Shown: positions 1,851 to 63,838, counted from the stretch's first letter. The stretch is 64,000 nucleotides of DNA from an uncultured bacterium (GCA_963535415.1 CAUSVV010000002.1:100688-164687); one strand, 5' to 3'. The notes: generated from the letters alone by a model not told the origin. Numbers and translations are program-made.

Positions 1851-2914
1851 AGTATTTGCTCCAAAGCAGGATTTTGCTTTGCCTTTTCTGTCAAAAGCGT
1901 TATCATCTGCTGATCTAAAGCAAAAATTGAAAATTCCTTCAATAAACGCTCATTATAAAAAACCTTAACACGATGAAGACCAGAAACTGCAGGAATCAGA
2001 TTTATTTTTCTTTTTTCTCCCAAATAAGTAATACGATCTGGAAACACCTGCATTCCACTTCCAACTTCTACCTTGATCTCTCATTCAAGAAACCCTTGCT
2101 CTCCTCTCTTATTCTTAATCATCAATTCAATAGATTTTCCAAGCTTTACAATAGGATAAGATAATTCTCAACTAATATCCGCTGCAGTCAATAAATACGC
2201 AGCCGAACTAGCACCTTCATTTAACTGCTCTGCCTGAAAAATTCTCCCCTGTGTCTCCAAAAACAAAATCGGGTCCAAGGTATTTTTCTGGATCAATGAC
2301 CAACATTTTGCCTCATTTACAACTTGAAAAAGATTTTCTGCCTCACAATCAGTCTGCGGATAGTAAGGATGCTTTCCTTCATTAGTATCGATCTGAAAAT
2401 GAAGGTGAGGACCTGTTGTATTCCCAGTATTTCCAATTTTTCAGATCAATTGCCCCTCTCCTACTTTATCTCCTACCTGCACCAAAATTTCACTCAAATG
2501 CACATAATTTGAATAAATAAAGCGGCTTCAAATCTGATGTTTAATCGTGATAACATTTCCCCATTCACCCTTAGCGTGAGCATGAACTACTTCACCAGTT
2601 CCCATTGAATAAACTGGAGTTCCTACAGTCGATACAATATCCACTCCTTTATGTGCTCATTGCCCCATATCTCGACCTCAGACATAGGTTGCACCTCGCA
2701 AAACAGAGTATATAGAACGATGCAAAGGATTTTTTATAAAAGAAAGATAGTCCGCACCTTCAATCTTTGGCAACTGAATCTTACAAAGTTCCTGAGTACC
2801 GCAGAATTTCCCCTCCACTTCTGGAACTGGATACTGCCAAGCTCAGGCATACGAAGCCACAATTCAAATACCAAAAAAAACAGAAAAAATCAGATTTTTT
2901 ACCCTTTTTTTCAT
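1838..2914 (-). CDS. Peptidase M23 (LytM-type murein endopeptidase), secreted
   Basis: Signal-like N-terminus MKKRVKNLIFSVFFGIGIVASYA. Motifs HKGVDIV and IGKIGNTGNTTGPHLHFQID. Extends track ORF 1838-2053 upstream in the same frame through several TGA. Confidence 0.85.
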
Positions 2915-3098
2915 TTCCCCTACAAAAATTATATGTTAAAATCAGAAAAATCAGTATACTCCTCTCCTCCAGAAAAACAAGGAAAGTTTTTTGAGCTTAT
3001 GATAAATTTTGAAATTTAGGAAAAATGTCATAATTAGCATTTTTAAAAGCATTTTCAAAAAAGGGAAAGATTTCGAAAAGACAGAAAGATAGAATACT

Positions 3099-3779
3099 TT
3101 AAAAACCTAACTCATGAAGATAATCATAGCACCCTTTCCTCAAAGGTTGCATTGAAGAAAGTGAATGAGCATCACTATTAACATAAACATACTTTGCATA
3201 CTTTAGCATATAATTGAGCTTTTCAGAGATTGCGCGACCTTTACGAAAAGTTCCATAATTAAACTCCATAGCAATATCATAATAGTTTGCAAGCTCCACA
3301 ATAGGCTCAATACTCAAATATTCTCAAAGTTCATTAATATCATAAGGATGTCAAATAATCTTAATTTTTTGATGATTTTTCTCTATAGCATTTAATAACC
3401 CCTGTGTAGCAGTGACTGGCTCAGACAAATACCCATTCCAATGAACAGATAAAATAGTAAAATCACTTTCCAATTGCTGACTAACTAAACATACATTTCA
3501 ATCAGCATCCAAAACATCTGCCTCTATTCAAAAAATAACATTAACATCATTATGGACATTTTTCCAACTGTTCAAGGCATATCTCGCTCCACCAGATGGA
3601 CAAATTCCATAGCGCTCCTTAAGAATTTTAACCAGATGATCACTATGATCTGTTATCGCAATTTCTTTCATTCCGAGCACTCAAGCATATTGAACAATGT
3701 CTTCAACTGTAGCGGAACCATCTGATAAAACACTATGAATATGATAATCAGAAAAAGAATCATTCATAATTACGGACAT
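3099..3779 (-). CDS. PHP-domain phosphoesterase (histidinol-phosphatase family)
   Basis: N-terminal DYHIHSVLSDGSATVEDI..ITDHSDH pattern and C-terminal NSDAHS. Track ORF 3099-3317 extended through TGA in the same frame. Confidence 0.7.
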
Positions 3780-3922
3780 TTTATAGAATAGATTATAAAT
3801 ATCTAGAATAGGTATAGCTTAATTCAAAATAAATACAAGAAAAAATATAAAACAGGGCTCAAAATAAAGAAAAATCCTAGATATAATCTAGGATTTTCTT
3901 GCATTTTACAAAAATGCAACAA

Positions 3923-4315
3923 CTATTGTCCCGAATGCAAATGGGTTCTAGCTGTACTTATCTTAGAAATCAGGTTCCCGATCTCCAAACCGAATTGATC
4001 ACTTTCTGGTTCATCCAAGAAATCCGAAAGATGAGAGGAATCCAATCTAGAGATACGATCACATAGATGTGGATAGTCTCCCATAAATGTGATAAGATGA
4101 AAAGCATTTGTCGCTGCTAGGACCTGTGGCATACCAAAACGCTCACTAGTGCTATATTTGAATTTCTGATAAGCGATTTCCTGTTCCTCAGAAACAGTTC
4201 CACACTTTTGAAATTCACCACGCAAGTAAGATAAGACATCAATTGTGTCTTCAGTTTGAGAAGCTAAATTAAATAACTTCTCTTTCTCAATTTTGAAGTT
4301 TTTTGATTTATTCAT
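3923..4315 (-). CDS. Hypothetical protein (130 aa), stand-alone cassette
   Basis: Intact ORF with no TGA, its own consensus promoter (4359-4386) and a palindromic terminator at about 3873-3900. Confidence 0.6.
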   Translation of the reverse strand: MNKSKNFKIEKEKLFNLASQTEDTIDVLSYLRGEFQKCGTVSEEQEIAYQKFKYSTSERFGMPQVLAATNAFHLITFMGDYPHLCDRISRLDSSHLSDFLDEPESDQFGLEIGNLISKISTARTHLHSGQ

Positions 4316-4628: not shown

Positions 4629-4631
4629 ATA

Positions 4632-4956: not shown

Positions 4957-5029
4957 CTATATATACTAAAATACTTCTATAAATCAACTCAAAAAAACAA
5001 AAAAATCTGATTTATATCTACGCTTCCAC

Positions 5030-6773: not shown

Positions 6774-7178
6774 ATGAAAGTTTCTCATGCTCTTGGTATT
6801 GACCGAGGTAGTAAATATATTGGTCTCGCCTATACTCCGCTCAATGCGGATGTCGTTTTTCCGATTGGATATGTAATGAATGATGCAATGACCTACTACT
6901 ATATAGCAGATCTCATCCAGAGATATCACATTAGAAAAATCGTTCTCTGATGGCCCCAGAAACAAAAAGACATCCAAGAACATATCACAAAGTTTATGGA
7001 ATCTCTGAATTATATCATTGAAAATCAAAGAATCGAAATCGAAACGGTAGATGAAGATTTCAGTAGTGTGCAATCAGGAGAAATCGTTTCTGACTTCAAA
7101 AAAAATGCAACGACAGACACTATCAGTGCGATGATCATCCTTGAAAGGCGGAAACAATCAAAAAAATCTGAAAACTAA
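6774..7178 (+). CDS. ruvX: YqgF/RuvX family nuclease (pre-16S rRNA nuclease)
   Basis: N-terminus GIDRGSKYIGLAY..IVLGWP matches the GiDxGxxrIGvA..vvGlP pattern. Track ORF 6996-7178 extended upstream in frame through one TGA. Confidence 0.8.
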
Positions 7179-7215: not shown

Positions 7216-7635
7216 TCAATCCCCCTTTGGATAAAGTCGAGTAATCCAAACATTAAAAAGAGGAGCCTCAGAATGTAGTTCAAATAATCCTGGATCATCA
7301 GGGTCTCTTCGTTCTAAACTACTCTTCAGTCTCTGAATTTCTACGACTAGTGCAGAGAAATCCGGTATTCCTCCAAGCGCCAATAAAGCCTGATTACTTA
7401 CGAGCCTTAGCTTTTTTTGTCGATCAAGTTCATACACAACACTCGGTGCAATATTTACGTAGTCGTAGCGATAGAACCCATTTGCTAGCTCTCTTCTTCT
7501 CTTTGCATTAAGTGCTTCAGCATAGACTAAAATATCTTCAGCCAAAATACTAACCTCATCTAAGGAATAATGAATAATCTTTCCATTACCTAGACAACGA
7601 GCGACAAAAATCAGATTTTTTTCTTTTGTTCCCAT
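7216..7635 (-). CDS. Hypothetical protein, distant member of the small paralog family
   Basis: Intact 139-aa ORF. C-terminal DFSALVVEIQRLKSSLERRDPDDPGLF and VWITRLY blocks align with the two downstream paralogs. Confidence 0.65.
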   Translation of the reverse strand: MGTKEKNLIFVARCLGNGKIIHYSLDEVSILAEDILVYAEALNAKRRRELANGFYRYDYVNIAPSVVYELDRQKKLRLVSNQALLALGGIPDFSALVVEIQRLKSSLERRDPDDPGLFELHSEAPLFNVWITRLYPKGD

Positions 7636-11064: not shown

Positions 11065-11544
11065 TTAGTCTACCGCTATAATTTTCACATCTTTTCTTCC
11101 ACCTTCATGTCTCATTTTCACCGTATCTCCAACTTTTTTTCCTCTGATTGCCTGCCCAAGCGGAGATTCAAATGAAATCTTCAAACCATCCTCGATACCA
11201 ATTTCTCAGGTACCAACGATAGAAACCTGGTATTCTTTATCATCATCTTCAATACTCACGGTCACTTTTGAACCGAAATCAACGACTTTATCAGATTTTT
11301 TGATATCTTTTTCCTTTTCTACGATCTCAACATCAGCGATAAGATTAGTAATTTCAGCAATTCTTGAATTGATAAAATCCTTATCTTCCATAGCTGATTT
11401 ATACTCAAAGTTTTCCGAAAGATCTCCCATAGCCTTTGCCTCAGCAAGTCTTTCTAAGACCGCAGGCAATTTCTCCTGTTTTAGCTCCTGAAGTTCATTA
11501 ATCAACTTATCATATCACTCTCTGGTAAGAAAATTTTTACTCAT
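11065..11544 (-). CDS. greA: Transcription elongation factor GreA
   Basis: Coiled-coil region GDLSENFEYKSAMEDK and C-terminal SFESPLGQAIRGKKVGD. Track ORF 11206-11505 extended through TGA on both sides. Confidence 0.9.
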
Positions 11545-11946: not shown

Positions 11947-12174
11947 TTTGCTAATGTATAGAATATAAAATCAATCTTACTTGTATTAAAATCCTCTCAA
12001 AAAGCAAGAGTGATTTCGCATTTTTTCTTCAAAAAAACAAAAAAATCAGATTTTTCATCCTTTTTACATTCTATAAAAGAAATAAATCTGAAGAGAATCA
12101 CAATTTTTCCTTGAAAATACACAAATATTTCATACACTCTCAGAAAACATTTATTTTCTTATCAGAAATAAAAG

Positions 12175-12733: not shown

Positions 12734-14005
12734 TTAAATCTCCTCCATTTGCACAGGGACCGATTCAGATTTTTCTATCTGATTTCCATTTCCTAGTTGA
12801 TCTAAGCTGGTTGTATTCTCAGTTTCTGTTTGAACCGAAACCTGCTGATTCCCAGCACCAGATCCAGCAAAACCATCAATACTTTCAACCGGATTTTGGA
12901 CAAACTGCTTGGTTTTTTCAACAAAATTAGTTGCCCCCTGTTTGATTCCTGAGAAAACATTTTCGATAGGATTAAGCTGAACAGGAACCGATTGCGCCAC
13001 TACTTGAGTCTGAGAAGCATTCTCAGGCATTTGAAGAGGAACTGCATCTTGAATTTGTACAGGGACAGATTCAGTCGCCTGAACTGGAACTTGAAAAGGA
13101 ACTTGAACTCCTACACCCTGAACCGAATTTACAACTTGTCCTCACATCTGCTGAGCAGAAGCGACAACTTGCTGTCATGATTGCATGACTTGATTTCCTA
13201 TATTTTGGACTCCAGCCATTGGATCAGCTACAAAATTCTGAACTCCTCAAACTGGATTGCTTGCAAACTGCGAAACTCCATTCATCATCTGTCCTCACAT
13301 ATTTTGCATATTTGAAACTACTCCTCATCAAACATTCTGAACACCGTTCATTACTTGACCTCACATCTGTTGAGCAGAAGCCATCACCTGTTGCCCTGAT
13401 TGCATGACTTGATTTCCTATGTTTTGTACTCCAGCTATTGGATTAGCTACAAAATTCTGAACTCCTCAAACTGGATTGCTTGCAAAATTTTGAACATTCC
13501 CAGCAAGATTTTGTGCATTAGTCTGGATTGAATCTTTAAGCTGTCCTCACATATCAACCCCCTTATTGATCAGGTTTGTTGCCTGATTTGCAACCATTGT
13601 TGGAGCTGAAGTTATTGCACCTGCAACAGCATTCGTTTTCTCAGTAATCTTTCCAGCAATATTTGAGGTTGTGCTGGTAATACTATTAGCTACAGAAGTT
13701 GTCTTATCGAGCAAATTTTGAGTACTCGCGACTAATTTTCGAAAAAATCAAGGCTCCTGCTGAGGAACTTGTTGCACCTCAATAGGCATTTGCGCTACTC
13801 ATTCTTGATCCATCCCCTGATGAGCTGGAGCAGATTCTCCATTTTTAAGCCCAGTAATAGGATCAGGCTGCCCAGTCGCTTTAGCAATAAATCCAACAAG
13901 CTTACCAAGCATTCTATCAAAAAAAGATGGTTGCTTTGGCTCTGGAGGATTTACATGAGAGAGTGGAACTGTAGTAATGTTTTGAGCAGATACTGCTTCT
14001 GGCAT
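12734..14005 (-). CDS. Gln/Val/Gly/Asn-rich low-complexity repeat protein (423 aa)
   Basis: Track ORFs 13799-14005 and 12734-13030 share a frame. I checked every in-frame triplet between them and found no TAA/TAG and 11 TGA. Repeats of the type NPVGGVQNFVA, GNQVMQSGQQV and ASAQQMGGQV. Confidence 0.7.
13136..13487 (-). repeat. Internal tandem duplication, two ~130-bp near-identical copies with a 220-bp period
   Basis: 13136-13267 and 13356-13487 are near-identical (CCTCACATCTG.TGAGCAGAAGC...TGATTGCATGACTTGATTTCCTAT.TTTTG.ACTCCAGC.ATTGGAT.AGCTACAAAATTCTGAACTCCTCAAACTGGATTGCTTGCAAA). Confidence 0.8.
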
Positions 14006-14071: not shown

Positions 14072-14181
14072 AAAAATCTGAAAGAAAACCATAAATATCC
14101 CTATAGAATATTTTTTGTAGTGTCTATCTTACGATTCTATAGGAATAAACGACTTGACTTATGACAGGAATTATATAATAT

Positions 14182-14982
14182 ATGAATGTAAAAAAAATTA
14201 TTTTGCATATGAAAGGAATTATTAAATTGGCTAAATCTATTTTTAGCATCGGAATCTGTTTTGTTCTCCTATGGATTGTATTCAATTATCTAATAGGGAA
14301 AGAGATCTTTAACATGTATCCAATAATTGGATACCTATTAACTGTTGTTGCCTGCCTGAATATTGCATTGTTGCTAAGCATTTTATTGCAAGCTACAATG
14401 AAGAAGGGAGGACTAAAGGAAGTAGATATTCGAGTGACCAGAACTGGTGCTCTATGGATAATATCCTTCTTGATACCATACTTCTTTATCTTTGGAACAA
14501 ATATTGGAGTGACCTACTACAGTCCTCTAATAATAACCCAAAAAGGATTAGTGACTTTGACATGCATAGGAGCGATGTGGTTATTATTAAAACTCAAAGC
14601 TCACGGTATAACATGGCTCTATTATTTATTCTTTATGATTGTTACCGGGGCTCTTATGCACCTGGTCGAACATACTAATTGGAATAGATTCATGTTAGTA
14701 GTGGCTTGCCTAGGAGTTTTTATCGCTCCTACATATATTATACGAGAACGATGGAAAAGAAGCTCTGGCGATAAAGACTGGCTTTATCTTTCTCTAATGT
14801 TTCATATCGTCTTAGCAAGTATCATTGTCATCAACCCTGTAGGGAATCTCAGTCAGATTTTTATTTACCTTTTCCTAGTTAGTCCACTTTTAGTAACTAT
14901 TTTTGTTTCAAATCACATAGAAACAACAAAGGAACAAGAAACTAAAACAAGGTTGCCAAGAAAGAATAAAAACAACAGCTAG
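14182..14982 (+). CDS. Polytopic membrane protein (about 7-8 TM), unknown function
   Basis: Intact 266-aa hydrophobic ORF. Terminator at about 15012-15045. The -10 TATAAT ends 2 nt before the first ATG, so the true start may be ATG 14209. Confidence 0.7.
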   Translation: MNVKKIILHMKGIIKLAKSIFSIGICFVLLWIVFNYLIGKEIFNMYPIIGYLLTVVACLNIALLLSILLQATMKKGGLKEVDIRVTRTGALWIISFLIPYFFIFGTNIGVTYYSPLIITQKGLVTLTCIGAMWLLLKLKAHGITWLYYLFFMIVTGALMHLVEHTNWNRFMLVVACLGVFIAPTYIIRERWKRSSGDKDWLYLSLMFHIVLASIIVINPVGNLSQIFIYLFLVSPLLVTIFVSNHIETTKEQETKTRLPRKNKNNS

Positions 14983-15151: not shown

Positions 15152-16984
15152 TCACAAGTGTTCGGAAAGTAAAGCAATCTCATCATAAGGCAAATCCTTA
15201 TTATCAAAGATACGACTAATTTGTTGTTTTTCATCTTCAAGTTCTTCAAGTTCCTTGATCAATTGCTGAAGCTCAATATTTTCTGCATACGAGAGCTTTT
15301 TTATTGAGGTTGATGACTCAGAAGTTTTTGAAGAAAGATCAACAGAAACCTGATGAGAAGAGTCAGTTTTTTGTTCTTTTTGCTGAGTTTGGAGCTGATT
15401 TCGCTCTGTATACGTTCCTCGAAAATCAGTTACCTTTCCCTCCCCCTCAAAAACAAACAAATGATCAACCAATCTATCCATAAATGCTCTATCATGAGAG
15501 ACAATCAGTAAACATCCACGAAACTGCAACAAAAAATCCTCTAAAATTCTGATCGTCAAAAGATCTAAATCGTTTGTTGGTTCATCTAAAATCAAAAAAT
15601 TTGGATTTGCCATCAGCGTTTTTAAAAGAAAGAGCCTCCTTTTCTCACCTCAGCTGAGGGAAGTGGCAAACTGATACTGCTGCTGAGCAGGAAACAAAAA
15701 CCTTTCCAAAAGCATTGAAGCCGATATCTTCTCTCCACCAGCCAAAACAAGATATTCACCAACATCTCTAATCACATCAATTACTCTTTTTCACTCTGGA
15801 AACTCAATCTCACCCTGCTGATAATGTCAAAACACTACAGTCTGCCCAACTTGAAGCACTCCACTATCAGGCAACTCCTCTCAGAGCAAAAGTTTTATAA
15901 AAGTCGACTTCCCAACTCCATTTTTCCCAATAATTCAAATACGCTCCTGAAACTTAAAATCATAAGAAAACTGATCTAAAATCATTTTTTGACCGAAAGC
16001 TTTTTTCAGATTTTTTATTTTAAGAATCTTAGTTCAAAGTCTCCTCTCCTGCACTGGGATATCAAGCACACCAGATTCCGAATACAAAAGCTCTTTTTGC
16101 TCATCATACTGGCTCTCTAACTGATAAAATTCTTTTTGTCTATAATTTTGTTTAGTCGCTCTTGCCCTTGGCGATTTACGCATCCAAACGAGTTCCCTTT
16201 TGAGCAGCTGACGAAGCTTTTCTATGGCAATCGATTCATTTTCTCTCCTCTCAGCTTGCTTCTGCAAAAAATAACTATAATTTCATGGATAAAAATACAG
16301 TTTTCATCTATCTAACTCATAGATCTCATCACATACACTTTCCAAAAAATACCTATCATGCGTTATCATAAACAAGGTAGAATGTTGATTTTTGAGATAA
16401 TTTTCAAGCCACTCAATCATCTGTAAATCCAAATGATTAGTTGGTTCATCAAGTACCAAAAAATCTGGTTCATCAATCAGTGTTTTCGCTAAAGCTACTC
16501 TTTTCAGCTCTCAGCCCGAGAGCGTTGAAAGCGGCTGTTGAAGAAGAGATGTCAACTGTAATCTAGAAATAATAGTGTTTACTTTAGACTCATAGTCCCA
16601 CGCCTGGATCGCATCAATTTCATCAAAAAGCTGCTGAAAACGCTCAGGATCAGTATCTGGGTTCTGTACGAGTCATTCGTATTCTCTGATCAAACTTGCA
16701 GCTGGATGAGAGATTGCAAACAACTCCTCTGCTATCGTATGATTCAGATCTCCACGAAAATCCTGAGGCAAATATCAGATTTTAAGCCCCTTTCTCCATT
16801 CTACCTTTCCATCAGTTTTATCTAGTTCTCACATAAGAAGCCTCAAAAGTGTGGTCTTTCCTCCCCCATTCTTGGCAACAAGAGCAATCTTTTGCCCCTG
16901 CTCTACAGTAAAACTTAAATGATCAATAATCGGTCTCCCAGTATAAATTTTCGTCAACTGATCTACCTTTAACTCCCAAGCCAT
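15152..16984 (-). CDS. ABC-F family ATPase (Uup/EttA-like, two ABC domains)
   Basis: Walker A NGGGKTT, signature LSGGE, Walker B LVLDEPTNHLD and ILDEPTNDLD. Track ORFs 16829-17011, 16034-16267 and 15152-15613 share a frame. In-frame triplets checked for 16268-16520. Confidence 0.85.
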
Positions 16985-42959: not shown

Positions 42960-43168
42960 AATATTTTGGAAGAAATAAAAAACTGACCACAAAAGTCAGA
43001 TTTTTTGTTTTCTCTCTCACTATAACTATCTAAAAAAATCAACTTCATATAAGAGGAGTCTGTTTTTAACAATAAGATTTTAAGCCTACCAGAATAATTC
43101 TCATTTCCAATTGAAACCAAAAGCCCTTTCCTTATTATCATAAAAAACTTTAACCAAGCGAAACTATA

Positions 43169-45266: not shown

Positions 45267-48200
45267 TTATAAAAGCTCTTTTGTCAGCCAATCAGCTAAC
45301 TTTTGCACCATTGTATCATCTTTTAAGGCGCCACACTTTGCTTCTAAATCTGATCTCTTCACGAGTGTTGTTCCATCAATAACGAGCGTCGGCTGAAATC
45401 TAAACTTCAAAATCTCCAAACTTGTAAAATCAGTCTTAAATTCAACCTTTTGCCCACGATATTTCGACACACATCGATTTCTCAAGTTCGCTAGCCAAAG
45501 CATTTCATGTAAAGAAAGCTCCAAAGATAAACCTGACAATATAAAGTTATCAGCCTTTTGTTCAAATTTTACCTTATGACCTCGACTTTTAATCTCTGAA
45601 CTCTTTGGTAGATACTCGATATTTCATCTTTTCCCCTGCCAAACGACAGTATCTTTCTGATTTTCAATCTGATTTTGCAAACCTCCAAGTCCTCCAATAA
45701 CCGCTTCCTCAGGCTGAGAAAGTGTTTTAATTTCATAGGTGCACTGAGGGATTTTTGTATCATCAATATACGAAACTACCTCAAGAGAAGAGATCTGCTC
45801 CTGAATACGCTTATCAATTTGAGCGAAAAGTCACTGATTCAGATTCATTTTAGTAATATTCATCTTCGTAGTTCAAATATTTCTCAGCATCCATCACTCC
45901 AAGATCTTTTCAATCACAAGATTTGAAGCACGCAAAGCCAACTTATGTTCCTCAGATTTATCAGACGCCCAAAGTGATTTAAGCGACTTCTCTTCTCCAT
46001 TGATCTTAAGTTTAAGACTTTCTAACTTCTTCACATAGAACTCTTTAATTGGTTGCTGATCTAACGGAGAATCCTTTTCTAAACTCAGATTTCCTTCTTT
46101 ATCAAAAATATTCTGTTGACCAAGCCTAACTGCTTCTTGAAAACTTCCAAAATCATCAATATCATTAGTCAACTTAAACTGACTCACTCTCAAAAGTAAA
46201 CCTTTATATAAATTTTCAAAATACTGAGCATATTCCTCTGATTGCCTCAATGTCAAAGACGCCGCAGTTCACGGAGCATACACCAATAGATTTGCCTTAA
46301 CTTGCTCTCGATCTTTATATTTCTGACTGATGATAAGCTCAAGTTCCCTCGGCAAATCTAAATCATCCTCAAAGCCAAAGCTTCCATCGATTCCCCTCAA
46401 GTCCTCTAACTTTTTATGAGCCAGCTCCACGCGATCAATACATTTCTGCTGTTCAGGACTATATTTTGTCCTATCAGATACTAGATATTGCTTCTCAACT
46501 CCAGCAAAAGCATCTAACCCTCCTATTTCTGAACTCATCGAACAAATCTTCATTTTCCCCGCGTCCCAAGTGAAAAACTTTCTCTGCAGATCACCAAGTC
46601 CAGCTCTTTTCGCCTCAATAATCAGATAATACGGCAATTCCAAATACTCTCCATTAGAAGCATAATTTTTAACAAAAGTAGAAATCTGATTTTTGACCTT
46701 TGTTTGCTCCTCTAAAGTTTTGACCATAAGCTCCTCAGTCAAAATCTCTCTAAGCACTTTCTCAAACTCTTGTTGTAAATAAGGATCAATCGCCTCAGTC
46801 TTGGTATCAATATTTGAGCCACGAATAGCACTAATCAAGCGATCAACCAATCCAGGCACATCCGCTGATTTTATTTCCTTGGGAAGCTGCTGCGATAATG
46901 CACGATCTATCAGCCAATCTCTATTGATCTTCCACTCACTAGTATAGTAAATACCATGAACTCCTCACTTATCCTCTGAAAAGAAAGCCATCAACTCCTC
47001 TGCTGAATTCGCTCCCTCATAGCCATAAAGTCTCTTTGCCAGTTGATACTTTACATTTTGACTTACATCATCAGAATACTCTAAATCTGAATTCCTCTCT
47101 TTAGCAAACTGAACAATATCAACTAATTCGTCCTTATTCAAAGTTTGAAACTGTAATTTCTGCTCATCAAAACCATTTTCAATCAACTTTTCAAGCATAG
47201 CCATATTTCTATTAGTATCCTGAGGAGAAAAGTGTGATACTTCCTCACTTCTCTGCTCAAGACTGAGCCATTCCCTATATTTTTTGATCAACTGTAAATT
47301 CTGACTATACTCAGGAGAATCTCCCTCTGCCATCAAAGAATCAAAATCAGTAACCGAAATAAGCTCCTCAAAAAGAAAACGATTATTCTTTCTCAAATCC
47401 TCAAGCTTTTTAACTTTTTCTCTCGGAAAGTCTGCAAAAAATTCTGATTTAAACTGTGCTAGATTCTTGGCATAATCAAGGTTCTCATCCCATTTTTTAG
47501 CTTCAAACATCTTCAAGTATCCAGCAGACTCTGCAACTAGATCAATCAAACCTGAGGTACCTGCTCAGCTTTTTAGCTTATTCATCAGATTCGGATTTTT
47601 AAACTGCTCAGTTAAATATTTAGTCCTAACAGCAATTTTCTCCTTAACTTTTTTCAAAGAAGTAGTAAACGCCTCAGCTTGCTCTGGGGACAAATCTTTC
47701 AAAAAATCTGACTCAGATTTCCTAGAAGCGATATAATAATGAAGCATCTCATCTGTACTATCTCTCATCTCTTCAATAAAAAGGAGCGAATACAGAGCTT
47801 CATCCAGGTTTTTAGATTTTACATTATCTGCAGGAGCACCAATTTTCTCATTCCAAGACTGGTTTCAAAACTTTTGAGTATGTAAACCTTGCAAAACTGC
47901 TTGCCTAAGCTCAGCTCTACTCTGCCTCAAGAAATCCTCTCTATTCTGCAGATAAAAATCATGCGTATCAAAATACAAGGCATCAGCTCCAATACTCACA
48001 GCCGCAGTCACTGCTCAAACCGCAAGTCAAACAACCACTCCAGGAGCACCACCTACAGCTCCAATCCCACCGCAAATAATAATTGCCTCTATCGCAAAAG
48101 AAGAAAGTCAAACCGCAAGCTGGAAGTTTGCCTGATTTTTCTTGTTTTCTGCCCTTGTTTGATTAACCTTTGCGATCAATTCCGCTTCATCCATCGTCTC

Positions 48201-53886: not shown

Positions 53887-54040
53887 AATCAAAAAAAATC
53901 TGACTTTATGTTGACTTTTTATAGAAATTACGTATAAGATAAAATATAAATCTAAAGAAAAAATATTTCTTTCAGATTTAGGATCATTAACAAAAATCAC
54001 AATTATTAACAAAAATAAATAAAGTTAAATTTTTACAAAA

Positions 54041-54778: not shown

Positions 54779-54877
54779 CAACCAAAAAAATCTGATTCTT
54801 TCTCCTTGATTTTATATCGCAAATAAATATAAAAGATCAGCATTCCCCTTGAGGAGGAAATTTTTGCGTATGCTCAA

Positions 54878-55025: not shown

Positions 55026-55277
55026 ATGGCAAAAACACAGGAAAATGTATTTCAGAGACACGAGAGAGATACTGGGTCTCCACAAATGCAAATCGGTCTT
55101 TTATCTGATCAAATCGCAATGTTGCAAGCACATGTTGCAACTAATGCAAAAGATTATGATGCAAAGAGAAGTCTTTTGAAGAAGGTAGCAAAGAGAAGAT
55201 CTTTCTTGAGATACCTTAAGACAAAGGATCTAGATGCTTACACAAAAATCAGTAAAAAAATCTGACTTAAGGTCTAA
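55026..55277 (+). CDS. rpsO: 30S ribosomal protein S15
   Basis: HERDTGSPQMQIGLLSDQI..HVATNAKDYDAKRSLLKKVAKRRSFLRYL. Continues through TGA 55263 for 4 codons to a TAA stop. Confidence 0.9.
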
Positions 55278-56483: not shown

Positions 56484-56512
56484 AAAACCTGAATCAATCT
56501 CAGGTTTTTTTC
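56484..56512 (+). terminator. rpsA terminator; 27-nt direct repeat of 58687-58713
   Basis: AAAACCTGA-ATCAATC-TCAGGTTTTTT. Confidence 0.8.
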
Positions 56513-58061: not shown

Positions 58062-58097
58062 TAAAAAATCTGACTTTTAAACCAACGAAAAACAAAA

Positions 58098-58714: not shown

Positions 58715-59326
58715 TTATTTCTTATCTATCAAAATGGCATTCAACAGTCCATTTACCAATTTTGGAGCTCCATCATCAGAATATCTCTTTGCCAGCTCAA
58801 CCATCTCATTGATCACCACAGCAGGCGGCGTATCCATTACCTTTACCTCTAAATACCCCTGCAAAAGACATACCTGATCCATAATATCCATCTGCTCATA
58901 TTGGAAAGTTTGCGTATTCTGATTAACCTTCTCAATCAATTCTTCTTCATAACGAGAAATAGCAGAAGTCACCTTAAAAACATAATCTGTATCAATCTCC
59001 TCAAGTTGCCACTGATCAAAACCATACTTCATCAAATACCCAGCATCCTCCTCCGGACTCTGATTGATCAAATACTCAGTAACTTGTGCCTGGACATATT
59101 CATCAATATGCTCTTGCTGCTGTTTTTTTGATGCTACTTGTTTGAGAAATTCAGCATCAAAAAATGAATTTTCAGCTGGAGTATCAGGAGAAGAAATCTG
59201 ATCTCATGCTTCAGCAACTTTAGATGGCTGAACAATCAGATTTTTTTGCATTGCAGAAAAAAAACAATGCTCGTAAATATAGGATAATACCACTTTCCTC
59301 GCATTGATTCTTTTTCTAATATCCAT
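58715..59326 (-). CDS. nusB: Transcription antitermination factor NusB (long form)
   Basis: N-terminus RINARKVVLSYIY and C-terminus VVINEMVELAKRYSDDGAPKLVNGLLNAI. Track ORF 58715-59071 extended through one TGA. Confidence 0.8.
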
Positions 59327-60042: not shown

Positions 60043-60308
60043 TATTCCTCAAACAATATAAAAATTTGACTGAAGACCTTTATAGTGATTGGCGATAGAT
60101 AATCAAGAGAAAATAACACAGTTTTTAATTTTCAGCAAAAAACATCAAATAAAAAGCTGAATATATCAGATTTTTTAACTATTTTCTTTAGACATAAAAT
60201 CAAGAGAAAAATAAAGATAAAAAAATCTCTCATTTGAAATTGAAACTCAGAGTAGATTTCATACAATCTGAAATCAGATTTTTACCACTTTTGACATAAA
60301 ATATAAAT

Positions 60309-62609
60309 ATGCAACTCAAAGACTATATCGCCTCAAATCTCAATGATGAACAAACTGCTGCGGCTCTCCATACCAACACATCAGCTCTGATTATCGCTGG
60401 TGCTGGAAGTTGAAAAACAAGGGTACTTACTTACAAGATCGCATATCTAATCTGGTGAAAAAATATCAAAGTAGAGAGAATCTTAGCGGTAACCTTCACC
60501 AACAAAGCAGCAAACGAGATGAAAGAGAGACTGATCAAGCTTTGAGACGAAATTTCTAGCCAATCATTTACAAATGAAGAACAAAAATCTGACTCAGACT
60601 TTTGAGATTTTCTCAATAAAATGAATACAACCACTCCGAGCTCAATGCCGCGCCTTGATTCAAGAAAACTCAAATGGATTGGAACTTTCCACTCAATTTT
60701 CCTCAAAATTCTTAAAGAAGATATCGAAAGGTTGGAAATGAAATACAATAAAAACTTTGGAATCTTAGACGCCGATGATAGCGCAAAAATCATCAGAGAC
60801 ATTCTCAAAAGATATGCAATGGCAGATACCTTCAAACCCCAAGAAGTAAAAAGCTTTATTTCAAAGCAAAAAAACGAAGGAAGAACTGCAGAACTCTTCC
60901 TCAAATATAGCAACGGAAACTATGAAGATCAAATGGGGAAACTCTACCAAGAATACGAAAAGGAACTCGAAAAATCAAACAGCCTTGATTTTGATGATTT
61001 ACTACTCCTCCCCTATCAACTCTTCAAAAAAAATCCTGAAGTCCTTCAAAAATGGCAAAACAGCTTTGACTATATTCTCGTAGATGAAGCTCAAGATACC
61101 AACTGGATCCAATTTGAACTGATGAAAATGATGAGCTGAGAATGAGCAAATATCACACTCATTGGAGATGATTTTCAGAGTATCTATGGACGAAGAGGTG
61201 CACTTATGGAGAACTTTCTCAATGTAAAACAATACTGGCCAGATATCCAAATGTTTAAGCTCCAAACCAATTATCGTTCAAAAGCGCATATCGTCTCAGC
61301 AGGTAATGCTGTTATCAAGCAAAATAAAAACCAATACGAAAAAAACATCATCGCGTATAGAGAATGAAACGACAAAATTACTGTTCTCACGTACAATACC
61401 GATATTGATGAAGCAGCAAATACGATTGATCTCATCAAACAAATGAAAGATAAAGGGAAACTAAAATCACGAGGACAGGTAGCAATCCTCTACAGAACAA
61501 ACTCTCAATCTCAGAATTTTGAATCTCTTTTTGTTCAAGAAGGAATCCCCTACAAAATCTATGGAGCATTTAAATTTTTTGAAAGAAAAGAAATCAAGGA
61601 TATCCTTGCCTATCTCAAAGTGATCAATAATCCGTTTGATACAGTATCGCTCAAGAGAGTGCTGAATATTCCAAACAGAAAAATCTGAAAAACTTCCCTT
61701 GAAAGACTAGAATCCTATGCCTTAGAAATGGGAGTGAGCCTGTATGAAATATTACTCACACTTTCTGAAATGGGAACGACAAAAATAATTGAACAAGAAT
61801 GCTGAATCAAACTGACAACTCCAGCACTCGATGGGATCAAAGATTTTATTGAACTTTTCAATCAATTAACAACAGCGATCAAAACACTTAATCCAGCAGA
61901 TCTTACCGAATATCTTGTCAAAAAAATTGATTATAAAGGCTACCTTATCAAGGAAGAAGACAGTGAACAAACTGCAGAAGAAAAATACGAAAACATTGGA
62001 CAGCTGATCAACATGGCGAGCAAATATGAATTTTGAACCGCAAATGCAAATGAAGAAATCATCAGTTCTGGAGAAGAGTTACTGAGACGATTTTTGGAAG
62101 AAGTAACCCTAATGGTAGATACTATTGAAAATACAGATGAGAATTCTGACGCAGTCAAACTCATGACGATCCACTCTAGTAAAGGACTAGAGTTCCCGGC
62201 TGTCTTTATCGTAGGTGCAGAGGACAATATCTTTCCGCTTGCAAACTCTCTTCTCGAGCCAAAAATGCTAGAAGAAGAAAGGAGACTAATGTATGTCGCA
62301 ATTACTAGAGCCAAAGACGCGCTCTTCATCTCGCATGCAAACAGCAGAATGACCCGAGGACAAACCAAGATGAATCCTGTCAGCAGATTTCTCCAGGAAA
62401 TCCCGAACGATCTGCTCAAATTCTACGACCTTACCAAAGGCTGAGGAGCCCAGCATCAATCTTCAATCACTGAATGAGCAACTGTAAGGCATAAGCTCTT
62501 TGGAACTGGATATGTGCTTGAAATATGGAATAATCTCGGAATTGTAAAATTTCATAATCCAAAATTCTGACTCAGAAAGGTTGAACTCAGATTTTTGGAA
62601 GAATGTTAA
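60309..62609 (+). CDS. pcrA: ATP-dependent DNA helicase PcrA/UvrD
   Basis: AGAGSGKT (Walker A Gly encoded by TGA), TFTNKAANEM, GTFHS, VDEAQDT, TNYRS, LYRTN, MTIHSSKGLEF and YVAITRA. Track ORFs 60621-61139, 61443-61688 and 62094-62444 share one frame. Confidence 0.9.
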
Positions 62610-62643
62610 AACTCCTCTTTTTAGAACCTAGAAAAATCTCAAT

Positions 62644-63687
62644 ATGCAACTGTGCTTTGCACCGATGGATGGGATCACAAATTGTGCAACCCGCCTGATC
62701 ACGAAAAACATTTTTGATCGTTATAAAAATCAAAACGATACCCTACAGCTACGAACTGAGTTTATGAATGCTGATGGTTTTATCATCAATCCAAGCAAAG
62801 TCATCAGGCATATCTTGACCACACCTGAACAACTCCCAATCGCTCAGATCTACTGAGGGAATGAAGCAACACTCCTGCAAACCGCCAAGATCTTAGTTGA
62901 AAAATATGCCGACCAATTCTCAGGGATCGAGCTCAATACCTGATGTCCATCAAACACCGTCATGAAATGTGGTGGTGGCTCTGATATGCTTAGACACCGT
63001 GAAAAAACTATCACAATCATCCAAAATCTTTCAAAAATCGTAAAAAAAAATTCTGATTTATCTTTTTCTGTAAAATCCAGAGCAGGACTTCATGAAGAAG
63101 ACAAACCTGAACAGCTCGACTTCCTAAAAAGTATCGCACCAAGCTGCGATCTGATTAGTATTCACGGGAGAACCCTCAAACAACTCTATACAGGAGATGC
63201 TGATTTTTGATTTATACACCAGGTCAAACAATCGCTCCCCTGCAAAGTTGTCGCCAACTGAGGCATCACCTCTTATCAAATGGCTAAAGAAGTACTTGAT
63301 CAACGGAAATTTGACGGGATCATGATTGGACAAGGCGCTATAGGAAATCCCCGAATCTTCACGCAACATCTCCCATCACTCAGCGAAAAACTAGAGACCA
63401 TGCAAGAACACCTACTCATGATGATAGCCTGCGATCTACGATTTGAACAATGGTGAGAAAAGGTAGATAACTACGCTCTCAACCAACCAACACTCGAAGA
63501 TTTAGAAAAACAAAAAAAACTGATTGATTTTTCAAAAGAATATCGTTCAGTTGTAGAATTTAGAAAATACCTTTTTCAATATATAAAGGGGATACCAGAT
63601 ACTCGCGAACGAAAGCAAAAGGTCATACCTATCAAAACTGTAGGAGAACTTTTCTCTGCATTTGAAGAATTAGCCTCTCATAGATAA
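62644..63687 (+). CDS. dus: tRNA-dihydrouridine synthase
   Basis: APMDGITN, GIELNTGCP, GGGSDML, ISIHGRT and GIMIGQGAIGNP. Track ORFs 62644-62856 and 62962-63210 share one frame. Confidence 0.85.
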
Positions 63688-63805
63688 AACTAACTATCAT
63701 TGCAAGATTTCACTCAAGATGGCATTGCGAACCCAGTGAAGCTATCTAGATAAAATCAAACTTGCTGACTATAATATCTCCACAGCTTCACCTCACAATG
63801 CCTCA

Positions 63806-63838
63806 AGAAAAATCTGAACAAAAATCAGATTTTTTTTC
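63806..63838 (+). terminator. Intrinsic terminator built from an inverted pair of the AAAAATCTGA motif
   Basis: AAAAATCTGA-ACAAAAA-TCAGATTTTTTTT. Confidence 0.65.

What the first reader, a model, noticed from the sequence alone, without database searches (positions are those of the whole stretch)
2884..63838. Strongly over-represented 10-mer AAAAATCTGA / TCAGATTTTT found in most intergenic regions, often as inverted pairs (uptake-signal-like or promoter/terminator word)
By hand I count at least 30 copies of AAAAATC(T/A)GA(T/C/A)TT or one-mismatch variants in 64 kb. Examples lie near 2884, 5000, 6731, 7160, 7606, 12040, 14070, 16001, 22927, 25896, 25958, 26802, 27275, 28123, 28455 and 29095. 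Further examples lie near 37275, 37503, 41209, 42991, 44127, 53891, 54783, 58063, 58181, 59234, 60155, 60266, 60583, 63043 and 63808. A rough base-composition estimate predicts about one chance occurrence of a given 10-mer of this composition on both strands. Some copies form inverted pairs that make terminator hairpins (37503-37530, 60155-60177, 60266-60285, 63806-63838). Others are single copies fused to a -35 box (TCAGATTTTTTTGACT at about 14066-14081). A few lie inside coding sequence, where they encode K-N-L-I-F (2884-2900, 7606-7620, 22927-22943). High density, both orientations, frequent inverted pairs at terminators and occasional in-CDS copies together match the pattern known for DNA uptake sequences in Neisseria and Pasteurellaceae. 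The window also encodes the competence proteins DprA and ComFC. Alternative explanations are a lineage-specific UP-element or terminator word, or the binding site of a global regulator.
Basis: partly seen in the sequence, partly recalled or inferred. Interest (0 to 1): 0.7.

Follow-up and report, generated by a model that had tools for sequence, protein, structure and literature searches.

The report
Uptake-sequence-like DNA word in oral SR1
The 10-base word AAAAATCTGA occurs about once every 1.5 kb in the genome of an uncultured human-mouth SR1 (Absconditabacteria) bacterium, in a pattern otherwise known only from the 'DNA uptake sequences' by which Neisseria and Haemophilus recognise their own DNA; if uptake experiments confirm it, this would be the first such tag in the candidate phyla radiation.

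Summary
AAAAATCTGA occurs 43 times in 64 kb, against 1.4-2.9 expected. It is the most over-represented word at every length from 8 to 12. The window uses genetic code 25 (TGA = Gly) and comes from a human oral SR1/Absconditabacteria genome. Twenty-one copies lie inside well-supported genes, in all three frames and both orientations. There the word arises through codon choice (21 observed, 3.1 expected, using the rarest Leu codon, CTG). These copies are also more conserved than other 10-mers among ~95%-identical relatives. The other 22 copies sit in the ~15% non-coding or uncertain DNA. They occur in promoter-only, terminator-only and tandem spacers, and some form inverted pairs after gene ends. 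The word shows no replication-strand polarity. It is specific to one clade: oral SR1 lineages have it, while environmental SR1 of the same GC content do not. Other lineages carry variants (AAAAAGCTGA, AAGAATCTGA). It is 3-5 times rarer in SR1 phages than in the host chromosome. DprA, ComFC and type IV pilin genes are present. The best reading, unproven (~0.5), is a DNA-uptake-sequence analogue. No paper in the library reports one for this group.

The parts
512..521 (+). exact copy inside dnaG (sense; encodes K-N-L-I)
2890..2899 (-). exact copy in codons 6-9 of the M23 peptidase gene (sense; K-N-L-I-F in the signal-peptide region)
5001..5010 (+). exact copy in non-coding DNA, 46 nt upstream of RNase P RNA (4627-4955, -)
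7162..7171 (+). exact copy in a region where the ORF call is uncertain
7611..7620 (-). exact copy, either non-coding or at the start of ORF 7120-7635
11291..11300 (-). exact copy inside greA (sense; K-S-D frame)
12046..12055 (-). exact copy in a tandem spacer; in relative L005 the central base is changed, which puts the word on the other strand
12765..12774 (-). exact copy near the 3' end of the Q/N-rich gene g16 (sense)
14072..14081 (+). exact copy in a divergent (promoter-only) spacer; it abuts TTGACT on the - strand
14853..14862 (-). exact copy inside g17 (antisense)
16006..16015 (-). exact copy inside the ABC-F ATPase gene (sense)
18635..18644 (+). exact copy inside the disulfide oxidoreductase gene (sense)
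22932..22941 (-). exact copy inside the SbcD-like metallophosphoesterase gene (sense); the position and the rare CTG codon are conserved in the HOT-345 clade
23282..23291 (+). exact copy inside g25 (antisense), with an imperfect inverted partner
25898..25907 (+). exact copy in non-coding DNA upstream of serS
28125..28134 (+). exact copy in a divergent spacer; its last base is the A of the g32 start codon
28457..28466 (+). exact copy in the convergent spacer between g32 and g33; no stable hairpin forms
29098..29107 (+). exact copy in the divergent spacer between g33 and g34
33711..33720 (+). exact copy inside the Wzy_C/O-antigen-ligase-like gene (sense; K-I-G, with TGA read as Gly)
34453..34477 (.). 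perfect inverted pair of the variant AAAAACCTGA, 12 nt after the g37 stop
36441..36450 (-). exact copy in the divergent spacer between hisS and dprA
36509..37504 (+). dprA (transformation gene); it contains one copy and is followed by a pair
37278..37287 (+). exact copy inside dprA (sense; K-S-D frame)
37506..37530 (.). perfect inverted pair (loop of 5) starting 1 nt after the dprA stop; RNA hairpin of -8.8 kcal/mol; identical in 9 of 9 close relatives
39535..39544 (+). exact copy in a region where the small-ORF call is uncertain
40136..40145 (+). exact copy inside the Mur ligase gene (sense; K-I-G, TGA = Gly)
41211..41220 (+). exact copy immediately after the Mur ligase stop codon (tandem spacer)
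41828..42532 (+). comFC-like gene (double zinc ribbon plus PRTase domains)
42350..42359 (+). exact copy inside comFC (sense; K-N-L-N)
42977..43005 (.). hairpin AAAAAACTGAC-loop-GTCAGATTTTTT starting 18 nt after tRNA-Arg; includes the exact copy at 42996-43005 (-)
43298..43307 (-). exact copy inside miaA (antisense)
44887..44896 (-). exact copy inside the NlpC/P60 gene (sense)
47702..47711 (+). exact copy inside the 1349-aa gene g50 (antisense); the only copy in 7.3 kb of giant genes
53894..53903 (+). exact copy in non-coding DNA after mraY; it follows a GC-richer hairpin
54786..54795 (+). exact copy in non-coding DNA, 82 nt upstream of tRNA-Arg; it follows the second copy of the same hairpin
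55256..55265 (+). exact copy in the last codons of the S15-like gene (K-I-G-L-K-V-stop, TGA = Gly)
56484..56509 (.). variant hairpin AAAACCTGAATCAATCTCAGGTTTT, 19 nt after the S1 gene stop
58064..58073 (+). exact copy 2 nt after the RuBisCO stop codon
58686..58712 (.). second copy of the same variant hairpin, after the g57 stop (convergent spacer)
59236..59245 (-). exact copy inside the nusB-like gene (sense)
60151..60175 (.). imperfect pair AAAAAGCTGA / TCAGATTTTT in the divergent L27-like/uvrD spacer; includes the exact copy at 60166-60175 (-)
60274..60283 (-). exact copy in the same divergent spacer, 25 nt upstream of the uvrD/pcrA start
60583..60592 (+). exact copy inside uvrD/pcrA (sense)
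61679..61688 (+). exact copy inside uvrD/pcrA (sense)
62587..62596 (-). exact copy inside uvrD/pcrA (antisense)
63808..63834 (.). perfect inverted pair (loop of 7) about 120 nt after the dus gene stop; RNA hairpin of -11 kcal/mol

Best explanation
AAAAATCTGA (more loosely AAAAA-N-CTGA, with T preferred at N) is a double-strand DNA recognition word that this oral SR1 lineage keeps at about one copy per 1.5 kb. It most likely serves as a self-tag for natural transformation, that is, as a functional analogue of the Neisseria DUS and the Pasteurellaceae USS.

Inferred mechanism: a surface component of the type IV pilus/Com machinery, by analogy a minor pilin, binds extracellular double-stranded DNA that carries the word in preference to other DNA. 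The DNA is pulled in through ComEC, handled by ComFC and DprA, and recombined. Fragments with the word are taken up more often, so alleles carrying it replace alleles that lack it (molecular drive and/or selection). The word therefore accumulates wherever it is tolerated: in spacers, and inside genes through synonymous or conservative codon choices. Inverted pairs in 3' spacers are additionally retained because they can fold as weak bidirectional terminator hairpins.

Shown here: the word is enriched; the pressure acts at the DNA level and is symmetric with respect to strand; copies inside genes are conserved more than background; the word is clade-specific and has variants; it is depleted in phage; and dprA, comFC and pilin genes are present.

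Inferred, not shown: that SR1 is competent; that uptake is sequence-biased; and the identity of the receptor.
For: (1) Enrichment. There are 43 copies against 1.4-2.9 expected, and this is the top word for k = 8 to 12. Mean spacing is 1507 nt. The Neisseria DUS is spaced at about 1150-1500 nt (PMC2397512).

(2) DNA-level pressure inside genes. Among peptides that could encode the word, there are 16 sense copies against 2.2 expected from codon usage, and 5 antisense copies against 1.0. All three frames are used. K-N-L is encoded as AAA AAT CTG in 7 of 12 cases although CTG makes up only 7% of Leu codons. Among 60 control words of the same composition, the motif ranks first (z = 10.6), and the controls have a mean z of 0.3. 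The result was repeated in the HOT-345 clade (11 observed/1.6 expected and 8/1.4) and in L033 with that lineage's own word.

(3) Copies inside genes are conserved in 93% of comparisons with ~95%-identical relatives, against 64% for background 10-mers (P = 0.0004) and 71% for AT-matched 10-mers (P = 0.006). The copy in the SbcD-like gene is conserved across clades that share only 60% amino-acid identity.

(4) There is no replication-strand polarity: 25 copies on + and 18 on -, across a window with uniform GC skew.

(5) Copies occur in divergent, convergent and tandem spacers. Thirteen of 43 have an inverted partner, against about 4 expected by chance. Hairpins of the word family sit directly after six gene or tRNA ends.

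(6) Clade specificity. The family occurs at 6-11 copies per 10 kb in oral SR1 lineages, and at 0-1.5 in environmental SR1 of the same GC content. Variant words are AAAAAGCTGA in L033 and AAGAATCTGA in L031. All variants keep CTGA; all Neisseriaceae DUS dialects likewise keep CTG (PMC3630211).

(7) SR1 phage contigs that use code 25 carry 4-5 copies per 21-22 kb. About 15 would be expected at the host density.

(8) dprA and comFC are in the window. Prepilin-type genes occur in motif-bearing SR1 loci. Com genes and type IV pili are conserved across the candidate phyla radiation. Natural transformation through ComEC has been shown in Saccharibacteria (PMC10633639). ComEC, ComEA and type IV pili are reported in the Absconditabacterium Vampirococcus (PMC8080830).
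Against: There is no functional evidence: competence has never been shown for SR1, and no receptor is known.

Relative enrichment is only about 15-30-fold. By my recollection the figure for DUS/USS is in the hundreds, because those words are unlike their genomic background. An A-run plus TCTGA in a 36% GC genome discriminates less well against other AT-rich DNA.

One-mismatch variants are also strongly enriched (105 observed, 42 expected), so the signal is fuzzier than a strict word.

Copies outside genes are not significantly more conserved than background (0.72 against 0.62, P = 0.18).

Segments of the window that are missing from some close relatives have the same motif density as shared segments. 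This is my own count, and the numbers are small.

L013 falls within the motif-bearing clade on a single-gene tree yet lacks the word.

No comEC or comEA gene lies in the DNA available here.

The hairpins are weak (-5 to -15 kcal/mol), and a stronger GC-rich terminator follows dprA as well.
Confidence: 0.5

Rival explanations
1. The word is the binding or recognition site of an intracellular double-strand DNA system unrelated to uptake. Candidates are a nucleoid-associated or chromosome-organising protein, or a methyltransferase- or repair-linked iterated word such as cyanobacterial HIP1. In this view selection keeps the word throughout the chromosome.
For: The pressure acts at the DNA level, is symmetric with respect to strand, and reaches into genes. 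Intragenic copies are conserved. The word is clade-specific. The extended forms AAAAATC(T/A)GATTTT are nearly palindromic, as expected for a dimeric binding protein. Lower density in phage is also compatible with a chromosome-specific function.
Against: No candidate protein or cognate methyltransferase was found. The core word itself is asymmetric, and only about 8 of 43 copies carry the palindromic extension. To my knowledge, known nucleoid or segregation sites (matS, SlmA and Noc sites, parS) number tens per genome, not about one per 1.5 kb, and are not written into genes by codon choice. HIP1 is a strict palindrome.
Confidence: 0.25
2. The word is mainly a transcription signal. The A-tract plus CTGA stem would form half of the lineage's preferred bidirectional intrinsic terminator, and the A-tract would sometimes act as a UP element. 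Single copies would then be decayed or incipient half-sites.
For: Hairpins of the form A5-6-N-CTGA / TCAG-N-T5-6 sit directly after six gene or tRNA ends. Three of these are perfect pairs of the variant AAAAACCTGA, in which position 6 changes in a compensating way on both arms. The SR1 phages place a perfect pair between convergent genes. Density in non-coding DNA is 5.8 times that in genes. Two copies abut TTGACT boxes.
Against: Twenty-one copies lie inside genes. They are created by non-preferred codons, are enriched about equally in sense (7-fold) and antisense (5-fold), and are conserved. A terminator or promoter half-site inside genes should be selected against, not for. Thirty of 43 copies have no partner. 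Six copies lie in divergent, promoter-only spacers and three in a convergent spacer, with varying orientation and spacing. The hairpins are weak, and conventional GC-richer terminators also exist.
Confidence: 0.12
3. The word is a Chi-like recombination hotspot, or a KOPS-like polar chromosome signal.
For: Such words are also lineage-specific short sequences, enriched in core genes by codon choice and conserved. There is a mild excess of the A-rich orientation on the C-rich strand (about 59% over all loci).
Against: The 25:18 split in a window with uniform GC skew is compatible with 50:50 and with the AT skew of the strand. It lies well below the ~75% or greater skew that I recall for Chi and KOPS. 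Perfect inverted pairs are not expected for a polar signal.
Confidence: 0.05
4. The copies are remnants of a miniature mobile palindromic element (REP- or MITE-like) that spread through the genome.
For: Identical hairpin-containing repeats flank variable cassettes (19264-19299 / 20667-20702, 53858-53883 / 54747-54772, 56484 / 58687).
Against: Similarity between copies does not extend beyond about 10-12 nt plus A/T-richness. Half of the copies are in frame inside conserved genes. No RAYT-type or other transposase gene is in the window.
Confidence: 0.05

Closest known systems
Neisseriaceae DNA uptake sequence (DUS, GCCGTCTGAA and its dialects; receptor: the minor pilin ComP)
   Same: A 10-mer at about one copy per 1.1-1.5 kb. 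Found in both orientations, in genes and in spacers. Often arranged as inverted pairs after genes. Related lineages carry variant 'dialects' that keep a CTG(A) core. By coincidence or not, the two words share the pentamer TCTGA. (PMC2397512 and PMC3630211.)
   Different: The phylum is different (candidate phyla radiation, genetic code 25). The word is AT-rich and has a low-complexity 5' half. Relative enrichment is far lower. One-off variants are common. The hairpins are weak. No ComP homologue was looked for or is known here, and uptake bias is untested.
Pasteurellaceae uptake signal sequence (USS, AAGTGCGGT / ACAAGCGGT, with AT-rich flanks)
   Same: The density is similar. Many copies lie inside genes, in all frames, at positions where the encoded peptide is tolerated. 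The flanks are AT-rich. Two subtypes occur in related clades (PMC3630211 introduction).
   Different: The sequence is unrelated, the receptor is unknown in both cases, and the host lineage is different.
Cyanobacterial HIP1 (GCGATCGC), a highly iterated palindrome
   Same: A short word at about one copy per kb that is written into genes by codon choice and whose function is unproven (from my own knowledge of the literature, not checked here).
   Different: HIP1 is a strict palindrome linked to a cognate methyltransferase. The SR1 word is asymmetric, and no methyltransferase link was found.
Chi sites and KOPS/AIMS polar words
   Same: Lineage-specific short words that are over-represented in core DNA.
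   Different: Those words are strongly co-oriented with replication. The SR1 word is not, and it forms inverted pairs.

Membership tests
DNA uptake sequences (DUS/USS class) | A short (9-12 bp) word that is massively over-represented, at about one copy per 1-1.5 kb | tested here: met
   43 copies in 64 kb against 1.4-2.9 expected. Mean spacing 1507 nt. Comparable density (3-7 per 10 kb) in loci from related genomes. Only 64 kb of this genome, plus loci of about 20 kb from its relatives, were available.
DNA uptake sequences (DUS/USS class) | Found on both strands, in genes and in spacers. Copies inside genes arise at the DNA level, not from peptide selection | tested here: met
   25 copies on +, 18 on -. 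21 copies in secure coding sequence, in all three frames and both orientations. Codon test: 21 observed against 3.1 expected, first among 60 control words, and repeated in two other clades.
DNA uptake sequences (DUS/USS class) | Frequent inverted pairs downstream of genes that can act as terminators | tested here: met
   Two perfect pairs, and 13 of 43 copies with a partner within 2 mismatches (about 4 expected by chance). Six hairpins of the word family lie directly after gene or tRNA ends. Terminator activity itself was not tested.
DNA uptake sequences (DUS/USS class) | Lineage-specific, with related 'dialects' in sister lineages | tested here: met
   Present in oral SR1 clades and absent from environmental SR1 of the same GC content. 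L033 uses AAAAAGCTGA (10 observed/0.5 expected) and L031 uses AAGAATCTGA (5/0.2). The tree rests on a single gene, and each lineage contributes only about 20 kb.
DNA uptake sequences (DUS/USS class) | Rare in recently acquired or foreign DNA such as phage; conserved in the core genome | tested here: inconclusive
   SR1 phage contigs carry 4-5 copies per 21-22 kb, against about 15 at host density. Those contigs were found through a motif pair, and they are related to one another. Intragenic copies are conserved above background (P = 0.0004), but copies outside genes are not (P = 0.18). Segments that vary between strains show no depletion.
DNA uptake sequences (DUS/USS class) | The organism has the uptake and transformation machinery (type IV pilus, ComEA/ComEC, DprA, ComFC) | tested here: inconclusive
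   dprA and comFC are in the window. N_methyl prepilin genes occur in motif-bearing SR1 loci. No comEC or comEA was seen in the DNA held here. For the phylum as a whole they are known from the literature only (PMC8080830, PMC10633639).
DNA uptake sequences (DUS/USS class) | DNA carrying the word is preferentially bound, taken up and used in transformation, through a specific receptor | not testable with these tools
   This requires uptake or transformation assays in an SR1 co-culture. The feature is the one that defines the class, so membership remains unproven.
Chi / KOPS polar words | Strong co-orientation with the direction of replication | tested here: not met
   25:18 in a window with uniform GC skew of -0.18. 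About 59% when pooled over all loci, no more than the strand's composition skew would predict.
Intrinsic terminator / UP-element word | Confined to 3' spacers (terminator) or to a fixed position upstream of -35 boxes (UP element), and oriented with transcription | tested here: not met
   21 copies lie inside genes. Six lie in divergent spacers, three in a convergent spacer and about ten in tandem spacers. Both orientations occur.
REP / MITE-type mobile palindromes | A longer conserved element that lies outside genes and is often associated with a transposase | tested here: not met
   Similarity is limited to about 10-12 nt. Half of the copies are inside genes. No transposase domain was found in the genes scanned.

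The most novel reading that the evidence does not exclude
Host-associated Absconditabacteria (SR1) have evolved a DNA uptake sequence system independently of Proteobacteria. The self-tag AAAAA-N-CTGA, with lineage-specific dialects, would be read by their type IV pilus/Com machinery. These obligate epibionts would then take up and recombine DNA of their own kind selectively, rather than scavenging any DNA for nucleotides. This would be the first uptake sequence outside Neisseriaceae and Pasteurellaceae, and the first in the candidate phyla radiation.
Probability: 0.5. Interest if true: 0.85.

Novelty: new variant of a known kind. Interest (0 to 1): 0.72.

Why it matters
Uptake sequences are so far established in only two proteobacterial families. 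Finding an analogue in SR1 would have three consequences.

First, it would show that sequence-selective transformation evolved convergently in the candidate phyla radiation.

Second, it would bear on an open question: whether the Com system that is conserved across this group serves nucleotide scavenging or genetic exchange. A self-tag only makes sense for genetic exchange.

Third, it would give a practical handle. Adding AAAAATCTGA to transforming DNA could make oral SR1 genetically tractable. To my recollection SR1 has been grown in co-culture, although this was not checked here. So far, genetic manipulation in this group has been achieved only in Saccharibacteria (PMC10633639).

Even if the uptake reading is wrong, something acts on double-stranded DNA strongly enough to override codon preference in a reduced 36% GC genome with an altered genetic code, and that would still need an explanation.

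Tried and rejected
1. Standard-code ORF calling gave only short ORFs (the longest 270 aa). I rejected it in favour of code 25.

2. An exact-protein look-up of a window gene without TGA codons found nothing.

3. A first conservation test with five relatives was inconclusive (28-30 of 42 conserved, against 0.58-0.66 for background). With 17 relatives it became significant for copies inside genes only.

4. I compared motif density in segments that are absent from some close relatives with density in shared segments. Both came to about 0.5 per kb, so this gave no support either way.

5. I scanned metagenome and viral collections for the perfect pair. In 94 of 132 loci only the pair was present, which are chance palindromes in AT-rich DNA. 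One locus (L125) is an unrelated satellite-like array. Only loci with the code-25 signature showed real enrichment.

6. The peptide explanation (K-N-L-I-F) was rejected, because all three frames and the antisense strand are used.

7. Chi/KOPS, pure UP element or terminator, and REP/MITE were each rejected on the membership tests listed above.

8. An IHF-like site (WATCAR-N4-TTR) was considered. It was rejected because the dominant word has CTG, not CAG, at the critical positions.

9. A bias toward genome-maintenance genes was considered. My tally is 7 of 21 intragenic copies in dnaG, the sbcD-like gene, dprA, comFC and uvrD, against about 3.5 expected. This is suggestive only.

10. A search of the available loci for comEC found no large multi-pass membrane ORF.

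11. Literature searches for the motif string, and for uptake sequences in SR1 or the candidate phyla radiation, found nothing.

Full report

Yes. AAAAATCTGA and its complement occur 43 times in the 64-kb window, 25 on the + strand and 18 on the - strand. Dinucleotide-preserving shuffles give 1.39 +/- 1.23 copies, and never more than 6. A third-order Markov model expects 2.9 and a fifth-order model 8.4. The word and its overlapping shifts are the most over-represented k-mers at every length from 8 to 12. With one mismatch allowed there are 148 matches against 31 +/- 5.5 expected.

The boundaries of the word are sharp on the 5' side. Of the AAAATCTGA copies, 93% are preceded by a further A, after which only general A-richness remains. 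On the 3' side the next base is anything but G, followed by a T-rich stretch. Positions 1, 3, 4 and 7 are nearly invariant. Position 6 is tolerant: T 43, A 11, C 8, G 10, where each is expected 1-3 times. The changes 5T, 8A, 2G and 10G are also enriched. A fair description is AAAAA-N-CTGA, with T preferred at N.

**2. What the window is**

Under the standard code the longest ORF is 270 aa. If TGA is read as a sense codon, ORFs reach 1348 aa and cover 88% of the window. In a disulfide oxidoreductase, 9 of 11 in-frame TGA codons align with glycine in a solved homologue. The code is therefore 25 (TGA = Gly).

A scan of species-representative genomes using the seryl-tRNA synthetase placed the window among human oral 'candidate division SR1' (Absconditabacteria) genomes assembled from metagenomes, at 98% identity. 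The next clade, at 74-79% identity, includes 'SR1 bacterium human oral taxon HOT-345'.

Genes identified by Pfam include dnaG, rpoD, trigger factor, greA, nusB, serS, hisS, uvrB, uvrD/pcrA, an SbcD-like phosphoesterase, murE-like, mraY, miaA, S1, RuBisCO, dprA and a comFC-like gene. Four tRNAs and RNase P RNA are also present.

Twenty-one of the 43 copies lie in secure coding sequence (0.39 per kb). The other 22 lie in the remaining 9.7 kb of non-coding or uncertain DNA (2.26 per kb). In five sense copies the TGA of the word is an in-frame glycine codon, for example at the C-terminus of the S15-like protein, K-I-G-L-K-V.

**3. Is the signal protein, RNA or DNA?**

Sense copies inside genes use all three frames (K-N-L, K-S-D/E and K-I-G), and there are also antisense copies.

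I took every peptide in the window's genes that could encode the word and calculated, from the window's own codon usage, how often it should do so.
- Sense: 16 observed against 2.2 expected.
- Antisense: 5 observed against 1.0 expected.
- K-N-L-x is written AAA AAT CTG A in 7 of 12 cases, although CTG is the rarest leucine codon at 7%.

Among 60 control words of identical composition (A5 followed by a permutation of TCTGA), the motif ranks first with z = 10.6. Second and third are its own shift and a family variant. The controls average z = 0.3.

The test repeats in independent clades:
- HOT-345-like loci: 11 observed/1.6 expected (sense) and 8/1.4 (antisense).
- A second set of loci: 8/0.9 and 4/0.85.
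- L033, tested with its own word: 6/0.8 and 4/0.2.
- 200 kb of environmental SR1: no signal.

Enrichment is about equal in sense and antisense (5- to 7-fold). The force therefore acts on double-stranded DNA, not on protein or mRNA.

Copies inside genes are also conserved. Across 17 relatives at ~95% DNA identity, they are intact in 93% of comparisons. The figure is 64% for background 10-mers (P = 0.0004) and 71% for AT-matched 10-mers (P = 0.006). Copies outside genes are not significantly better conserved (72% against 62%, P = 0.18). The copy in the SbcD-like gene sits at the same position, with the same CTG codon, in clades that share only 60% protein identity.

**4. Where the non-coding copies are, and what the hairpins do**

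Non-coding copies occur in all three types of spacer:
- divergent, promoter-only: 14072, 28125, 29098, 36441, 60166, 60274;
- convergent: 28457, and the pair 37506/37521;
- tandem: about ten copies.

This rules out a purely terminator or purely promoter role.

Thirteen of 43 copies have an inverted partner within 25 nt and 2 mismatches, against about 4 expected by chance. Two pairs are perfect. Hairpins of the form A5-6-N-CTGA ... TCAG-N-T5-6 sit directly after tRNA-Trp, g37, dprA, tRNA-Arg, the S1 gene and g57. Three of them are perfect pairs of the variant AAAAACCTGA.

The predicted RNA hairpins are weak, at -5 to -15 kcal/mol. A conventional GC-richer terminator also follows dprA. A secondary role as bidirectional terminators is plausible but untested.

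**5. Polarity**

The window has uniformly negative GC skew, so it lies within one replication arm. The 25:18 split, and about 59% pooled over all loci, is no more than the strand's composition skew would predict. Perfect inverted pairs are also unexpected for a polar signal. This argues against Chi- or KOPS-type words.

**6. Phylogenetic distribution**

The word is the top 10-mer in loci from the window's species group (up to 7 copies per 10 kb) and in the HOT-345 clade. It is at background level in environmental Absconditabacterales of the same GC content and in a Gracilibacteria locus.

Other lineages carry related words that keep CTGA:
- L033: AAAAAGCTGA (10 observed, 0.5 expected);
- L031: AAGAATCTGA (5 observed, 0.2 expected);
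- L073: T, A and G at position 6 in nearly equal numbers.

On a single-gene (SerRS) neighbour-joining tree, the motif-bearing lineages group together. L013 and L011 fall inside that group with few or no copies, and L033 branches outside it.

In a metagenome scan for the perfect pair, only contigs with the code-25 ORF signature and GC of 0.35-0.37 showed real enrichment.

**7. Phage**

Three IMG/VR contigs show the code-25 signature. A locus from one of them (L198, from UViG_3300007119_000013) carries tail-like and tape-measure-like genes. L202 and L206, from the other two contigs, have the same arrangement of ORF sizes around the motif pair. I take these contigs to be SR1 phages.

They hold 4-5 exact copies per 21-22 kb, including a perfect pair between convergent genes. 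About 15 would be expected at the host density and about 1 by chance.

These contigs were found through the pair, and they are related to one another, so the result is only indicative. Still, a 3- to 5-fold depletion argues against a general mutational bias of the host. It fits a signal that accumulates in chromosomal DNA.

**8. Machinery and literature**

dprA and comFC are in the window. Prepilin-type (N_methyl) genes occur in motif-bearing SR1 loci. No comEC or comEA gene lies in the DNA I could hold.

From the literature:
- Com genes and type IV pili are conserved across the candidate phyla radiation. Saccharibacteria are naturally transformable in a ComEC-dependent way. Transformation has not been tested outside Saccharibacteria (PMC10633639).
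- The Absconditabacterium Vampirococcus encodes ComEC, ComEA and type IV pili (PMC8080830).
- For Neisseria, DUS are spaced about 1150-1500 nt apart. They often form inverted pairs that act as terminators. They are enriched in the core genome and rare in acquired genes (PMC2397512).
- All DUS dialects keep a CTG core that is needed for uptake (PMC3630211).
- No paper in the library mentions this word, or an uptake sequence in SR1 or the candidate phyla radiation.

**9. Interpretation**

The combination of features matches the signature of DNA uptake sequences point for point, and I know of no other class that shares all of them:
- density of about one copy per 1.5 kb;
- strand symmetry;
- copies written into genes against codon preference;
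- conservation of those copies;
- a higher density where constraint is low;
- inverted pairs after genes;
- clade-specific dialects with a conserved core;
- depletion in phage;
- presence of transformation genes.

I therefore take a DUS/USS-like self-tag for natural transformation as the best explanation, with confidence of about 0.5. The defining property, sequence-biased uptake through a receptor, cannot be tested here.

Several features weaken the case. The word is AT-rich and of low complexity. Its relative enrichment is modest (15- to 30-fold). One-off variants are common. Non-coding copies are not demonstrably conserved.

The main rival, at about 0.25, is an unknown intracellular double-strand DNA recognition system: a nucleoid-associated protein, or a HIP1-like iterated word. 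A primary terminator or UP-element role (about 0.12), a Chi/KOPS-like word (about 0.05) and REP/MITE-like elements (about 0.05) each fail at least one direct test.

**10. Novelty and verdict**

The element works like a known kind (uptake sequences). It occurs in a new phylum, with an unrelated host biology, an altered genetic code and presumably a different receptor. I classify it as a new variant of a known kind.

It is worth following up. The prediction can be tested directly in SR1 co-cultures, and if it holds it would give a tool for genetic work on these organisms.

Noticed in passing
window 1-64000: The window uses genetic code 25 (TGA = Gly). Standard-code ORFs are at most 270 aa long. 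With TGA read as sense, ORFs reach 1348 aa and cover 88% of the window. In one enzyme, 9 of 11 in-frame TGA codons align with Gly in a solved structure. The source is a human oral SR1/Absconditabacteria genome.
   Followed up: yes
window 19264-19299 and 20667-20702: Two identical 36-nt repeats, each containing the hairpin AAAAAATCAG...CTGATTTTTT, flank a 1.37-kb cassette (19299-20667, which includes ORF g21). Relatives L002, L003 and L005 lack the cassette and keep a single repeat copy; L004 has it. It looks like gain or loss of a cassette by recombination between terminator-like repeats.
   Followed up: partly
window 53858-53883 and 54747-54772: Two copies (96% complementary) of a GC-richer hairpin, GTCCTATG...CATAGGAC followed by a T-run, flank the small secreted-protein-like gene g53. 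Each is followed within about 15 nt by an exact motif copy (53894 and 54786). A repeated 'terminator plus motif' module appears to bracket a single gene.
   Followed up: no
window 56484-56509 and 58686-58712: The same hairpin, AAAACCTGAATCAATCTCAGGTTTT, occurs twice, on either side of the RuBisCO-g57 gene pair. RuBisCO is 92% identical in protein sequence to its homologue in L009, whereas other shared genes are 37-78% identical.
   Followed up: no
window 45267-52617 (- strand): Two adjacent giant genes (1349 and 1092 aa). They are rich in coiled-coil and low-complexity sequence. They were not scanned against Pfam here, and the precomputed annotation of the homologue of the 1349-aa gene in the syntenic loci L070 and L071 lists no Pfam family. 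Together they hold only one exact motif copy in 7.3 kb. Giant surface proteins are reported as typical of Absconditabacteria (PMC8080830).
   Followed up: no
window 12734-14005 (- strand); repeats at 13113-13267 and 13332-13486: Gene g16 encodes a Q/N/G/V-rich repetitive protein (repeated 'GVQN...MGGQ' units) with an internal 155-nt repeat at 86% identity. It has no Pfam match.
   Followed up: no
window 1-64000: GC skew is unusually strong and uniform (-0.07 to -0.28 per 4 kb, -0.18 overall), and AT skew is mostly positive, even though genes lie on both strands.
   Followed up: no
L198, L202, L206, L208-L210 (IMG/VR UViG_3300007119_000013, 3300008746_000188, 3300008680_000247): Siphovirus-like phage contigs with the code-25 ORF signature, presumably SR1 phages. 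L198 has genes matching minor tail/Dit PHROGs, a tape-measure-like gene and a peptidase gene. A perfect motif pair lies between two convergent genes.
   Followed up: partly
L075 10001-12294 (Gracilibacteria GCA_021734475.1): In this motif-free relative, dprA is followed directly by two N_methyl (pilin-like) genes. A dprA-pilin gene cluster of this kind could help in looking for a DNA receptor.
   Followed up: no
L009 and L022: L009 carries about nine copies of a repeat containing TAACTTCTAAAC, possibly a CRISPR array or a tandem repeat. L022 (an environmental Absconditabacterales genome) has ATGAATAAT-type repeats clustered in several spacers.
   Followed up: no
L125 (metagenome contig Ga0126342_10131118): An unrelated 1.6-kb contig at 28% GC carries a satellite-like tandem array built from AAAATCTGAAAA(T/A)TTCAGATTTTCAG units. 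It is a chance carrier of the word, not SR1.
   Followed up: no
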